Notes: generated by a model not told the origin, from the sequence alone. DNA of 64,000 nucleotides from an uncultured bacterium (GCA_963708305.1 CAVPSH010000003.1:561812-625811); one strand, 5' to 3'; numbered from the stretch's first letter, positions 1,717-55,472 are shown. A program made the numbers and translations.

Positions 1717-1772
1717 GGTAGGGCGGGCAGTCCTCTGCCCGCCGCGGCGCGCACGGAGTGACGCGCCCTACC
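1717..1772. repeat. REP-like palindromic doublet, family A (GGTAGGGCG...CGCCCTACC)
   Basis: ggtagggcgggcagtcctctgcccgccg followed by cggcgcgcacggagtgacgcgccctacc, between atpF and atpH. The same arm recurs at 10252, 28386, 39706 and 55398. Confidence 0.9.
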
Positions 1773-10251: not shown

Positions 10252-10325
10252 GGTAGGGCGCGTTGCTCCGCGCGCGCGGATTTGGATTGGTAGACGACGG
10301 CGCGCACGGAGTGACGCGCCCTACC
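10252..10325. repeat. REP-like doublet, family A
   Basis: ggtagggcgcgttgctccgcgcgcgc...cggcgcgcacggagtgacgcgccctacc immediately after the gltX stop. Confidence 0.9.
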
Positions 10326-27368: not shown

Positions 27369-28390
27369 ATGATTGATGTTGCCGACAGTCCGCAGGTCGA
27401 ATTGAACGATTTGCAGGTCCGCAAGGCCATGCCCCAGCACCGGTTCGAACCCCTGGCCAGGGAGATTCTCACTCTCAAAAAGCAATTAAACGCCGTCATT
27501 CTGGCGCACAATTATCAGGTCCCCGAAATCCAGGAGGTGGCGGATTTTGTCGGCGACTCGCTTGGCCTGTCGCAACAGGCGGCCAAAACCGGCGCCGACG
27601 TAATTGTGTTCTGCGGCGTGCATTTCATGGCCGAGACGGCCAAGATTTTGAATCCGAACAAAATCGTCGTGCTGCCGGACAAGGACGCCGGCTGCTCGCT
27701 CGAAGAGAGTTGCCCGGCGGACAAGCTGGCCGAATTGCAGAAGACCAATCCGAATTTCTGGACCATTGCCTACATCAATTGCAGCGCGGCGGTGAAAGCC
27801 TTGACCGACGTGATTTGCACCAGCGGCAACGCGGTGAAAATCGTTCAGGCCGCGCCGAAGGACAAAGACATCCTGTTCGTTCCGGACGAAAATCTCGGTC
27901 AATGGGTAATGGAACAAACCGGCCGGCCGATGACGTTGTGGCAGGGCAATTGTTACGCGCACGTCGAATTCCGGCGCGAACAGGTGCTGAAACTGCGCGA
28001 GAAATTTCCGGACGCCAAAGTGGTGGTCCATCCCGAAAGCCTGCGCGAGGTGCGCGACCTTGCCGATGCCGTGCGTTCGACGGAAGGTATGATTACCTTT
28101 TGCAAAACCAGCCCGGCGAAACAATTCATCGTCGTGACCGAATCCGGCATCATCCATCGGATGCAGAAGGAGTGTCCGGGCAAAGAATTCCTGTGTGCGC
28201 CGTCGTTTGACGTGATGCGGCTGCCGTCGGACCATTGCCGGTGCAGCGAGTGCAAGTACATGAAGATGAACACGCTTGAGAAGGTGCGCGACTGCATGAA
28301 ACGCCTCGCCCGCGCGTCGAATTGCCGCCGGAAATCCTGAAGCGCGCCCGGTTGCCGATTGAGCGGATGCTGGAAATTTCGGCGCGGTAG
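27369..28390 (+). CDS. nadA: Quinolinate synthase (apparent indel near 28310)
   Basis: ILAHNYQ.PEIQ, GDSLGLS, FCGVHFMAETAKILNP, AGCSL, YINCSA, HPE, CKYMKMNTL. The shifted frame ends ARLPIERMLEISAR*. Confidence 0.93.
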
Positions 28391-28519
28391 GGCGCGTCAC
28401 TCTGTGCGCGCCGTTCCCGAGTTGCAAAAGCGGCGCCGGCAAAAACAGGACTGCCTCAGCCCTAAAAAAGTCAGAGACCTGCGCGACGCCTGTTCTAAGC
28501 GTGGTTCGGATCCGGCAAC

Positions 28520-38517: not shown

Positions 38518-40797
38518 GTGACTCTTCGCCGCGATCAACTCTTCACGCCGCTGAAACAGTTCTTCGGCTTCAGTTCCTTTCGCCCGTTGCAGGAGGAAAT
38601 CATCCGCGACTCGCTCGCCGGTCGGGACGTTTTCGCCGTGTTGCCGACCGGCGGCGGCAAATCGCTCTGTTTCCAACTGCCCGCGCTCGCTGCGGCCCGG
38701 ACTCACCGTCGTCGTCTCGCCGCTGATCGCGTTGATGAAGGACCAGGTGGACGCGCTCCAGGCGGCGGGCGTGGCCGCGACCTTTCTGAATTCATCGCTG
38801 GCTGCGGGCGAATCGCGTCCGCGCTTGCGCGGATTGCACAACGGGGAGTTTCGATTGCTCTATGTTGCGCCGGAGCGGTTGATGTTGTCCGGCTTTCTCG
38901 AAGATTTGAAAAAGTGGAACGTCAGCCTCTTCGCCATTGATGAAGCGCATTGCATCAGCGAATGGGGCCACGATTTCCGCCCGGAATACCGGCAATTATC
39001 GTCGCTGCGGGAAATTTTCCCGGGCGTGCCGATGATGGCGCTCACGGCCACGGCCACCGAGCGCGTGCGCGGCGACATCGTCCGGCAATTGCACCTGAAA
39101 GATTCCGCGTGTTACATCGCCAGTTTCAACCGCCCGAACCTGACCTATCGCGTCGCCGCCAAATCGGGGGCTTACGAGCAAATCCTTTCCTTCGTTCGCG
39201 CGCGGCCAAAAGAAAGTGGAATCATTTACTGTCCAGGCGCGGAAAACCGCCGACAGCATGGCGGGCAAACTTTCCGCCGATGGCGTCCAGGCGTTGCCGT
39301 ATCACGCGGGCATGACGGCGGGCGAGCCGGACAAAAAATCAGGAGGCGTTTCTCCGGGACGAGGCGCGCGTGATTTGCGCCACCATCGCCTTCGGCATGG
39401 GTATCAACAAACCGAACGTGCGTTTCGTGATTCACTACGACCTGCCCAAGAACATCGAGGGTTATTATCAGGAAACCGGCCGCGCCGGACGCGACGGCCT
39501 GCCGGGCGAATGTCTTTTGTTGTTCAGCCCCGGCGACCGCGTGAAACAGATGCGGTTCATTGACGAAAAACCGAATCCGCAGGAACGCGAAATCGCCCGC
39601 GCCCAACTGGAACAGATGATTCATTATGCCGAAATCGCCACCTGCCGCCGTGAGTTTCTGCTCGGATATTTCGGGGAGAAATTTACAATCGACGATGCCG
39701 GACAAGGTAGGGCGCGCCACTCCGTGCGCGCCGACCTTACGACGTTGGACAACGGCGCGCACGGAGTGGCGCGCCCTACCGAGCTCGTGAACTGCGGCGG
39801 CTGCGACAATTGCCTGGCCCCGCGCGCGACCTGGGATGGCACGCTGGCCGCGCAGAAATTTCTCTCATGCGTTTATCGCATCCGCGAGAAAAGCGGATTT
39901 GGCGTCGGCATCCAGCACGTGGTCGAGGTACTCTGCGGCGCGGAGACGGAGAAAGTCCGCAAGTTCGGTCATCACACGCTTTCGACCTACAACATCGGCG
40001 AAGGGCACGCGCGCGCGGAGTGGGCGGCGATCGGCCGCGAGCTGGTGCGGCTTGGCCTGTTGTTCCAAAACCCGGAGAAGTTTAACATCGTCGAACTGAC
40101 GGATGCCGGTCGCGTGGTGCTCAAAGCACGGCAGAAAATCACGCTGACCAAACCGGTGGCGCCGACCGGGCCGGCGAAACATCGCGCCGGGGAAATCGCC
40201 TGCGACGAGGTGTTGTTTGAAAAATTGCGCACGCTGCGCAAACAACTCGCCGACGAACGCGCCGTGCCGCCTTACATCATTTTCTCCGACGTGTCGCTGC
40301 GGCAGATGGCGCGGTTTTATCCGGCGGGCGAAAAGGATTTCTCTCGCATGAGCGGCGTGGGTGAAAGGAAATTGCGCGAATTCGGCGAAATGTTCCTGCG
40401 CGAAATTGCGGCGCATTTACAAACGAACCCGCGCCAGGTTTTTGCCGACGATTTTCCGCAACCGGGGATGCCCTCCGTTCCAATGCCGCGCCGTTCGCGG
40501 CTGACGGATACCGTGCGCGAGACCTTGCACTTTTTCCGGCAGGGCAAGACCGTTCCCGAGATTGCAGAGATTCGCAGTGTCAAAGCGGACACGATTTACA
40601 GCCATCTGGAAGAAGCCATGCTCGCGGGTGAGGCCATTGACGTGAGTTCCCTGATCCCGGCCGAAGCCCAACGCGACATCGCCGCGGCCTTCGCCAAACG
40701 CGGTTTCGTCAGCCTCGGCGTCGTGGTTGAATCGCTCGGCGGCAAATATGGCTACGGCGAATGCCGCGTTGTCCGCGCCGCGTTGCAAAGAGCGTAG
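38518..40797 (+). CDS. recQ: ATP-dependent DNA helicase RecQ (apparent single-base insertions near 38689, 39232 and 39327)
   Basis: [68 protein letters not shown]...CG.CDNC, RQC, HRDC (VPPYIIFSD), C-terminal HTH. Confidence 0.93.
39706..39780. repeat. REP-like doublet, family A, in frame inside recQ
   Basis: ggtagggcgcgccactccgtgcgcgccg...cggcgcgcacggagtggcgcgccctacc, 75 bp. Confidence 0.93.
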
Positions 40798-40960: not shown

Positions 40961-43913
<2,953 letters not shown>

Positions 43914-55397: not shown

Positions 55398-55472
55398 GGT
55401 AGGGCGGGTCGCTCCGCGCGCGCCGGTTCGGATTGTTCCCATAGCGGCGCGCACGGAGTGACGCGCCCTACC
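55398..55472. repeat. REP-like doublet, family A, between heptamer tracts
   Basis: ggtagggcgggtcgctccgcgcgcgccg...cggcgcgcacggagtgacgcgccctacc, with (CAACAGC)n to the left and (GATGTTY)n to the right. Confidence 0.88.

What the first reader, a model, noticed from the sequence alone, without database searches (positions are those of the whole stretch)
39706..39780. Family A palindrome adds 25 aa inside the RecQ zinc-binding domain
Seen: the element starts exactly on a codon boundary and encodes [25 protein letters not shown]. It lies between CRR...YFGE and the CGGCDNC zinc ligands. Its two arms carry complementary variants (gcCac/gtGgc, versus gtCac/gtGac in other copies), which keeps arm pairing. 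Known: this linker is a short, variable loop in RecQ. Inference: a tolerated insertion.
Basis: partly seen in the sequence, partly recalled or inferred. Interest (0 to 1): 0.7.

Follow-up and report, generated by a model that had tools for sequence, protein, structure and literature searches.

The report
Palindromic repeat translated inside recQ
A 75-base hairpin-forming mobile repeat (two inverted REP units) sits in frame in a surface loop of the DNA-repair helicase RecQ of a soil-type Verrucomicrobiota bacterium; such inserts are a known kind, but this loop is filled by different repeat families in most related species.

Summary
Window 39706-39780 is a perfect 28+19+28 nt inverted repeat, in frame, adding 25 residues between the first Cys and the CxxCxxC ligands of the RecQ zinc-binding domain.

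It is a head-to-head doublet of GTAG-headed REP units (REPIN-like). The family has about 50 arms in this genome and is present in all 5 relatives scanned.

The same doublet sits at the same place in six other species-level genomes. 9 of 12 family-A RecQ proteins from public data are full length, so the insert does not depend on a dead gene. Arms are 95% conserved; the spacer (57%) drifts like synonymous sites (64%). The C/G arm variant is the end of a T-A, T.G, C-G series.

The three recQ frame breaks are single-base insertions absent from a 97%-identical intact orthologue. With about 10 such events in 25 kb around them, assembly error is likelier than decay, but I could not check reads.

The linker is empty (6-7 aa) in only 19 of 93 related species. 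Elsewhere it holds palindromes of at least 8 families. UvrA and UvrB loops behave alike, and at least 25 further genes here carry in-frame REP-type inserts.

Di Nocera et al. 2013 already described intragenic GTAG REP dimers in repair genes of Verrucomicrobia. Verdict: new member of a known kind; tolerated selfish DNA.

The parts
39706..39780 (+). REP doublet (REPIN-like element), 75 nt, translated as 25 aa inside RecQ
39706..39733 (+). left REP unit: GGTAG head, then its own stem-loop (type 2, C variant)
   Evidence: as DNA the arm alone folds at -10.3 kcal/mol with the 5-nt head unpaired
39734..39752 (+). 19-nt spacer (hairpin loop); poorly conserved between orthologues
   Evidence: 229 of 399 spacer positions identical over 21 pairs
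39753..39780 (-). right REP unit, inverted, identical to the left unit
39679..39792 (+). whole RecQ zinc-finger linker (38 codons) between YFGE and the CGGCDNC ligands; 6-7 codons in RecQ without an insert
38518..40797 (+). recQ, read in four frame pieces because of single-base insertions at about 38689, 39230 and 39325; the C-terminal piece 39370-40797 carries Helicase_C, RecQ_Zn_bind, RQC, HRDC and HTH_40

Best explanation
The element is a non-autonomous palindromic repeat: two inverted GTAG-headed REP units forming a REPIN-like doublet. It inserted into the 6-codon loop that links the first zinc ligand of RecQ to the other three. It survives because that loop tolerates extra residues and because its length (75 nt) and reading frame leave RecQ open. 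It is translated as a disordered 25-residue excursion. The arms stay nearly invariant by constraint on the DNA or RNA sequence of the repeat family (recognition by its transposase, hairpin pairing, or homogenisation against other copies), not by selection on the peptide. Shown: the anatomy, the copy number, orthology in intact genes, arm-versus-spacer conservation, and recurrent occupation of the loop. Inferred: translation, neutrality for helicase function, mobilisation by a Y1/RAYT-type transposase, and that this genome's frame breaks are assembly errors.
For: Anatomy. Each arm has a GGTAG head plus its own stem-loop. One search found 22 heads-out doublets of 53-94 nt in the genome, built from two REP types.
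Copy number. There are 53 arm matches in the genome. Relatives hold 21, 9, 16, 1 and 7 arm matches, against 0 for the reversed control pattern.
Orthology. Seven species-level loci carry a 75-nt element with a 19-nt spacer at the same junction.
Conservation over 21 pairs. Arms 1112/1176 identical (94.6%); spacer 229/399 (57.4%); flanking recQ third codon positions 2402/3780 (63.5%); first and second positions 93.0%.
Paired position 12. T-A in 4 loci, T.G in 2, C-G in this one.
Open frame. Kept in 100 of 100 loci.
Structure. In the model of P0127, whose insert differs at 2 of 25 residues, mean pLDDT is 88.3. Residues 391-420 score 62, 47 and 46, and the flanks score 85-90. The best PDB matches are RecQ catalytic cores 6CRM, 1OYW and 4TMU.
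Not special to recQ. 13 of 22 doublets lie in frames that stay open for at least 60 aa on both sides. Pfam-confirmed hosts include UvrA, UvrB, HrpB and GlnE, and UvrC, a UvrD/AddA-like helicase, XseA, three class-I and one class-II tRNA synthetases, GatB and others.
Literature. Intragenic GTAG REP dimers encoding 20-30 aa are reported, most numerous in the verrucomicrobium Opitutus terrae and frequent in repair genes (PMC3733652, passages read).
Against: In this assembly recQ is broken by three +1 insertions, so for this genome alone a dead gene cannot be excluded.
No transposase is tied to the family. The two proteins above the NCBIfam REP_Tyr_transpos cut-off (85.6 and 91.3 bits against 80) are flanked by other repeats. 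Only an IS200-type Y1 gene has a related, non-identical doublet about 250 nt downstream.
No target motif or target duplication appears in the flanks of the 22 doublets.
Translation and helicase activity were not tested.
Arm conservation as strong as at non-synonymous sites would also fit a selected function.
Occupancy of the loop in 74 of 93 distinct species loci is high for purely neutral hits.
Confidence: 0.78

Rival explanations
1. recQ is a real pseudogene in this genome, and the palindrome is neutral debris in dead DNA.
For: There are three single-base insertions in the N-terminal half. They are not in long homopolymers. That is 3 in 2.3 kb, against roughly 1 per 2.5 kb nearby.
Against: An orthologue 97% identical over 1254 aligned columns (1212 identical) has none of the three and is open for 766 aa. 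No stop codon or larger deletion has accumulated. Nine frame breaks (about ten single-base events, six +1, one +2, two -1) lie in 25 kb in at least six genes, including gcvP. The genome has 7 contigs and 81% marker completeness. The insert is older than any such decay, because it is shared with intact orthologues.
Confidence: 0.1
2. The insert has been co-opted. Either the hairpin (in mRNA or DNA) or the extra loop is selected in recQ, for example to tune expression or to serve as a substrate-like sensor for the helicase. That would explain why the loop is almost always filled.
For: Arms are as conserved as non-synonymous sites. One compensatory series runs through a wobble pair. 74 of 93 distinct species loci, and 118 of 118 parsed close homologues, have a long linker. 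Repair genes are frequent hosts (PMC3733652).
Against: The occupants belong to at least 8 unrelated families with unrelated peptides. 19 species manage with the empty 6-7 aa loop. The same arm consensus is kept in intergenic copies and in other genomes, so conservation is a property of the family and not of recQ. Insert positions within the linker vary from 0 to 27 nt after the GAG codon. No terminator-like site or Rfam family was found at the element. Other arm changes are uncompensated: C.A in L032, G.A in L002, G.G in L033.
Confidence: 0.1
3. The palindrome is an assembly artefact, such as a fold-back chimera.
For: The assembly carries many indel errors. The palindrome is perfect.
Against: Independent assemblies of six other species carry it at the same site, as do 11 further database proteins.
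Confidence: 0.01

Closest known systems
Intragenic GTAG-type REP dimers (Di Nocera, De Gregorio and Rocco 2013, PMC3733652; abstract and passages read)
   Same: GTAG head followed by a short stem-loop. Head-to-head dimers that encode 20-30 residues inside known proteins. Most numerous in a verrucomicrobium (Opitutus terrae). Hosts are often UvrA/B/D-type repair genes and tRNA synthetases. The paper notes different REPs at about the same site of recB in two Xanthomonas species.
   Different: RecQ does not occur in the main text (0 occurrences); its host list is in an old .xls supplement that I could not read. The lineage here is different (Limisphaerales-type names). Occupation of one loop by at least 8 families across about 90 species is not described in the passages I read.
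REPINs mobilised by RAYTs (Bertels and Rainey 2011, PMC3116915, passages read; bioRxiv 10.1101/2021.07.10.451892, passages read)
   Same: Two inverted REPs with a less conserved spacer of fixed length. Long hairpin in ssDNA or RNA. Compensatory changes occur. A doublet of about 71 nt. The REP sequence persists over long periods.
   Different: REPINs are said to lie 'almost exclusively in extragenic space'. Here 13 of 22 doublets lie in open frames. No RAYT flanked by this REP family was found.
Rickettsia palindromic elements (RPE; as summarised in the review PMC10969869, passage read)
   Same: Palindromic mobile repeats inserted in frame in many unrelated housekeeping genes and compatible with the host protein's fold.
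   Different: RPEs are about 150 bp, are specific to Rickettsia, and encode a conserved peptide per family. Here the element is 75 nt and the constraint is on the arms as DNA. Sequence relatedness was not tested.

Membership tests
GTAG-type REP / REPIN | GTAG tetranucleotide at the outer end of a short imperfect palindrome (stem-loop unit) | tested here: met
   The arm is GGTAG plus a 7+2 bp stem with a bulge. As DNA it folds at -10.3 kcal/mol with the head unpaired. The type-1 arm (window 1717-1744) folds at -13.2 kcal/mol, z -5.4.
GTAG-type REP / REPIN | Two units in inverted, heads-out orientation with a short spacer, able to form one long hairpin | tested here: met
   22 such doublets of 53-94 nt in the genome.
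GTAG-type REP / REPIN | Dispersed multi-copy family, over-represented against chance | tested here: met
   6 matches against 0 expected in the window. 53 arm matches in the genome. 1-21 per relative, against 0 for the reversed control pattern.
GTAG-type REP / REPIN | REP arms more conserved than the spacer; compensatory changes | tested here: met
   Arms 94.6%, spacer 57.4%. One T-A / T.G / C-G series, alongside several uncompensated changes.
GTAG-type REP / REPIN | Extragenic location | tested here: not met
   This copy is in frame inside recQ. 13 of 22 doublets lie in open frames.
GTAG-type REP / REPIN | A cognate RAYT gene flanked by the same REP | tested here: inconclusive
   10 PF01797 matches. 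Two proteins pass NF047646 but are flanked by other repeats. An IS200-type Y1 gene (L024 1462-1938) has a related doublet downstream.
Rickettsia palindromic elements | Member of one of the RPE sequence families | not tested
   No RPE sequence was compared. The resemblance is functional only (PMC10969869).
RecQ helicase (host gene) | Domain set Helicase_C, RecQ_Zn_bind, RQC and HRDC, with four Cys zinc ligands | tested here: met
   Pfam: RecQ_Zn_bind covers residues 54-149 for a 66-position profile. C375, C425, C428 and C431 are invariant in 98 sequences. Foldseek top matches are RecQ catalytic cores.
RecQ helicase (host gene) | One uninterrupted reading frame | tested here: not met
   Three +1 insertions in this assembly. 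Orthologues are intact.

The most novel reading that the evidence does not exclude
A few permissive loops in DNA-repair proteins (RecQ, UvrA, UvrB and others) act as long-lived landing pads that are almost never left empty. Unrelated REPIN families replace one another there, or are exchanged as cassettes by recombination between species. The strong hairpins may be kept because they interact with the very repair helicases whose genes they occupy. On this reading, intragenic REPINs in this clade are a distinct lifestyle and not accidents.
Probability: 0.15. Interest if true: 0.7.

Novelty: new member of a known kind. Interest (0 to 1): 0.45.

Why it matters
It gives a well-documented natural case in which a strong 28-bp hairpin and 25 extra residues are carried inside the zinc finger of a conserved repair helicase, across several species. 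It also shows a loop that many repeat families have used. That makes RecQ of this clade a convenient system for three questions: how palindromic mobile DNA enters and leaves coding sequence, whether such inserts are neutral, and why repair genes are frequent hosts. For annotation, it warns that odd low-complexity stretches in Verrucomicrobiota proteins are often translated REP doublets.

Tried and rejected
I could not test the three indels on reads and relied on comparison instead.
First homologue search. The 'longer' search returned only proteins of 833 aa or more. It was useful for the fold alignment but not for the linker survey, so I repeated it with 'near'.
Rfam. Only sub-threshold matches to plant and animal miRNA precursor models (at most 40 bits against gathering scores of 76-268) and to sbcD RNA (17.7 against 40). 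These are generic hairpin hits.
Terminators and promoters. None at the element.
Target site. No conserved flank or target duplication among the 22 doublets.
Single-head counts. The 8-mer GTAGGGCG occurs 122 times, which by my own rough estimate (no call) is about what chance would give, so single heads were disregarded and only doublets counted.
Rapid in-place replacement. Using the RecQ tree to argue for this was weakened. The own linker matches L032 (108 of 114) while its flanks match L037 (96-97%). The genome holding L037 is only 82-91% identical to this one in uvrA and uvrB. Recombination can therefore produce the incongruence.
RAYT link. Not established.

Full report
OBSERVATION

Window 39706-39780 is a perfect inverted repeat: 28-nt arms, 100% complementary, with a 19-nt spacer. 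It starts 112 codons into ORF 39370..40797 and reads [25 protein letters not shown]. The ORF carries Helicase_C, RecQ_Zn_bind, RQC, HRDC and HTH_40. The RecQ_Zn_bind match spans 96 residues for a 66-position profile.

The insert lies between the CRR cysteine (39643) and YFGE (39667-39678) on one side and CGGCDNC (39793-39813) on the other. Those four cysteines are invariant in an alignment of 98 RecQ sequences. Against E. coli RecQ (1OYW), HMMER splits the match at exactly this point. The E. coli linker from E391 to C397 has 5 residues where this protein has 38.

The hairpin is far beyond chance:
- As RNA it folds at -71.9 kcal/mol, z -9.8.
- As DNA it folds at -44.5 kcal/mol, z -12.
- The arm recurs 6 times in the window against 0 expected.

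WHAT THE ELEMENT IS

Each arm is a unit in its own right: a GGTAG head followed by a small stem-loop. The genome holds 53 arm matches with up to 5 mismatches.

With exact GTAGGGCG heads there are 22 heads-out doublets of 53-94 nt. They are built from two unit types, GGGCGGGCAGTCCYCTGCCCGCC and GGGCGCGTCACTCCGTGCGCGCC. This is the anatomy of GTAG-type REPs arranged as head-to-head dimers (PMC3733652), and of REPINs (PMC3116915).

The recQ copy is a type-2/type-2 doublet. It is the only doublet in this genome whose two arms are identical. Five other arms in the genome carry the same C variant.

The family is present in all five relatives scanned, with 21, 9, 16, 1 and 7 arm matches and none for the reversed control pattern. 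The consensus arm is the same in them.

No Rfam family reaches threshold at the element, and no terminator-like site lies there.

THE TRANSPOSASE QUESTION

The genome has 10 PF01797 matches.
- Four are 150-158-aa proteins. NCBIfam files three of them as IS200/IS605 transposases; the fourth matched no NCBIfam family.
- Two, of 231 and 252 aa, pass the REP-associated tyrosine transposase model (85.6 and 91.3 bits, cut-off 80).

The two RAYT-type genes are flanked by other repeats, not by family A. One IS200-type gene has a related but non-identical GGTAGGGCG doublet about 250 nt downstream. The mobilising enzyme is therefore inferred, not shown.

IS RECQ DEAD HERE?

recQ is read in four frame pieces. 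Against an orthologue 97% identical (L037, 1212 of 1254 columns), the only differences in length inside the gene are three single-base insertions in this genome, at about 38689, 39230 and 39325. L037 is open for 766 aa. The same three insertions appear against G004.

In the 25 kb around recQ, comparison with the syntenic G004 region finds 9 frame breaks, corresponding to about ten single-base events. Six are +1, one is +2 and two are -1. They fall in at least six genes, including gcvP. The genome has 7 contigs and 81% marker completeness.

I read this as assembly noise, at about 85%. The read test was not possible.

Whatever holds for this genome, the insert is not a by-product of gene death:
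- 12 of 118 parsed close homologues carry the family-A peptide, and 9 of those 12 are full length at 757-804 aa.
- Six other species-level genomes carry the element in open frames.

CONSTRAINT

In the seven orthologous loci (L001, L032, L033, L034, L002, L035, L036) the element is always 75 nt with a 19-nt spacer, and the downstream junction is conserved. Identity over the 21 pairs is:

| Region | Identity |
|---|---|
| Arms | 94.6% |
| Spacer | 57.4% |
| Third codon positions of 180 flanking recQ codons | 63.5% |
| First and second positions of those codons | 93.0% |

So all three codon positions of the arms are held, while the spacer drifts like silent sites. The constraint is on the nucleic acid, not on the peptide.

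That is a compensatory path through a wobble pair. Other arm changes are uncompensated: C.A in L032, G.A in L002 and G.G in L033. Intergenic copies and other genomes keep the same consensus. The conservation therefore belongs to the repeat family. It may come from transposase recognition, hairpin pairing or homogenisation; none of these was tested.

STRUCTURE

An AlphaFold2 model of P0127 (765 aa; its insert differs at 2 of 25 residues) has mean pLDDT 88.3. Ten-residue blocks 391-400, 401-410 and 411-420 score 62, 47 and 46, while the neighbouring blocks score 90 and 85.

The best PDB matches are RecQ catalytic cores 6CRM, 1OYW and 4TMU, at 45-46% identity with target-normalised TM 0.76-0.78. 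This fits a disordered excursion from an otherwise normal zinc-binding domain. A model cannot show that function is unharmed.

THE LOOP IS A RECURRENT SITE

I parsed the linker in 100 of 100 loci: 20 from relatives and 80 from GTDB species genomes. All were open. After removing 7 duplicates, 93 remain (with four rows reclassified):
- 19 have the empty 6-7-residue linker.
- 7 carry family A.
- The rest hold inserts of 14-88 residues.

Most inserts are strong palindromes and fall into at least 8 families. By peptide signature these are:
- [18 protein letters not shown] (family A)
- DALPRV..DRQVSPT
- SRREEA..SLLTSAAT
- GAPVSD..SETGAP
- VGQASRLS..
- AFQPAG..
- SASAP..AGTR
- ..GEG.. types

15 further inserts remain unclassified. 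Some inserts are nested composites.

Among the 120 closest database homologues, all 118 that could be parsed have linkers of 19-85 residues. Two of the other families were checked and are dispersed repeats in their own genomes:
- The GGAGCGCC.. arm has 38, 36, 58 and 40 matches in four genomes and 0 in a fifth.
- The GGACGCGC.. hairpin has 10-14 matches in three genomes, each site counted on both strands, and 2 matches in this genome.

Insert positions inside the linker differ, from 0 to 27 nt after the GAG codon. That speaks for a permissive zone and not for one sequence-specific target.

On a FastTree of the 93 proteins with the linker removed, insert family needs 52 changes. The minimum possible is 10, the shuffled mean is 62.9, and 0 of 200 shuffles were as low.

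This incongruence is not proof of rapid in-place replacement:
- The linker of this genome matches L032 at 108 of 114 positions, yet L032's flanks differ at about 10% of positions.
- L037, whose flanks are 96-97% identical to this genome's, carries a family-E element instead.
- The genome holding L037 is only 82-91% identical to this one in uvrA and uvrB.

recQ is thus a mosaic here, and recombination can shuffle linker alleles. What stands is at least eight independent insertions into one loop.

NOT SPECIAL TO RECQ

13 of the 22 doublets lie in frames open for at least 60 aa on both sides. Pfam confirms these hosts:
- GlnE
- UvrB
- an agmatine-deiminase-type enzyme
- UvrA
- a CusB-like adaptor
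- GH20
- HrpB
- GH31

A motif scan for five families found 47 frames. Of the 20 sent to Pfam, 18 were recognised proteins. They include:
- a UvrD/AddA-like helicase-nuclease
- UvrC
- XseA
- ValRS, CysRS, ArgRS and a class-II tRNA synthetase
- GatB
- RibD
- acetyl-CoA synthetase

GcvP in the window carries a family-B doublet at about 42143-42220.

The UvrB loop is empty in 9 of 22 parsed relatives and holds different families in the others. The UvrA loop holds family A in this genome and one relative, and a heptamer-array element in two others.

COMPARISON WITH WHAT IS KNOWN

Di Nocera et al. 2013 (PMC3733652; abstract and passages read) report the following:
- Intragenic GTAG REPs, more than half of them dimers or groups encoding 20-30 residues.
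- The largest number is in Opitutus terrae.
- There is a striking share in UvrABCD, RecBCD, polymerases and tRNA-related enzymes.
- Different REPs sit at about the same recB site in two Xanthomonas species.

RecQ is not in that paper's main text, and its host table is an .xls supplement that I could not read. A search for RecQ, 'repetitive extragenic palindromic' and 'intragenic' together found no paper. REPIN papers state that REPINs are almost exclusively extragenic. RPEs of Rickettsia are the classic analogue (PMC10969869).

The finding is therefore a new member of a described kind. The scale of reuse of one loop, and its cassette-like behaviour, are the parts I did not find in print.

EARLIER NOTES OF THIS SCAN

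One note reports a RAYT with REPINs elsewhere in this genome. It may be the RAYT at C3:632239-632934, which shows a flanking duplication. Another reports an in-frame heptamer-array palindrome in hom; I saw the same type of element in uvrA of two relatives. Both agree with the picture given here.

Noticed in passing
window 42143-42220 (approximate end): gcvP (glycine dehydrogenase, ORF 40961..) carries an in-frame doublet of another GTAG-headed family, read as [25 protein letters not shown]. The insert is absent from the orthologue in G042, where the two flanks lie 16 nt apart.
   Followed up: partly
window about 29350, 32481, 36641, 38689, 39230, 39325, 43395, 46542, 53764, 54339: Single-base frame breaks relative to the syntenic region of G004, in at least six genes: six +1, one +2 and two -1 among the nine breaks. 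This looks like assembly-wide indel noise. gcvP's C-terminus is thrown out of frame at about 43395.
   Followed up: partly
window 1717-1772, 10252-10325, 55398-55472; single arm at 28386-28413: Other family-A doublets in the window. All have non-identical arms (type 1/type 2, or diverged type 2).
   Followed up: partly
G000 C1:545676-547847, C1:822515-825601, C7:71843-74539, C1:2056091-2060161, C1:1972826-1973590, C1:1149682-1150509: In-frame REP-type inserts in UvrB, UvrA, HrpB, a UvrD/AddA-like helicase-nuclease, UvrC and XseA. With RecQ, that makes seven repair or helicase genes among about 28 Pfam-confirmed hosts, which echoes the bias reported in PMC3733652.
   Followed up: partly
G000 C3:632239-632934 (about 6.4 kb beyond the window's end; L025 1123-1818): A 231-aa protein passes the NCBIfam REP-associated tyrosine transposase model. 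It is flanked by GAGCG..GAGTTGTC..CTCGC-type palindromes and by a direct duplication of about 65 nt of a neighbouring gene's 3' end.
   Followed up: partly
L177 and L178 (uvrA of G041 and G042): At the UvrA loop where this genome has a family-A doublet, two relatives have an inverted array of AGTCAGC/AGTCAGT heptamers, read as EKSVVSSQSSVAKTTDHGPRTTDS.
   Followed up: no
window 39370-40797 compared with L037 and L032: recQ is a mosaic. Its flanks are 96-97% identical to L037, whose genome is only 82-91% identical to this one in uvrA and uvrB. Its linker is nearly identical to that of L032, whose flanks are about 88-90% identical. This suggests recent recombination at recQ with breakpoints at the linker.
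   Followed up: partly
L024 1240-1460 and 1940-2040 (G000 C7, around an IS200-type Y1 gene): The gene is flanked by short hairpins of yet another repeat type (CAACCCTGAAAGGGTTG, CAACCCCGTTGGGGTTG).
   Followed up: no
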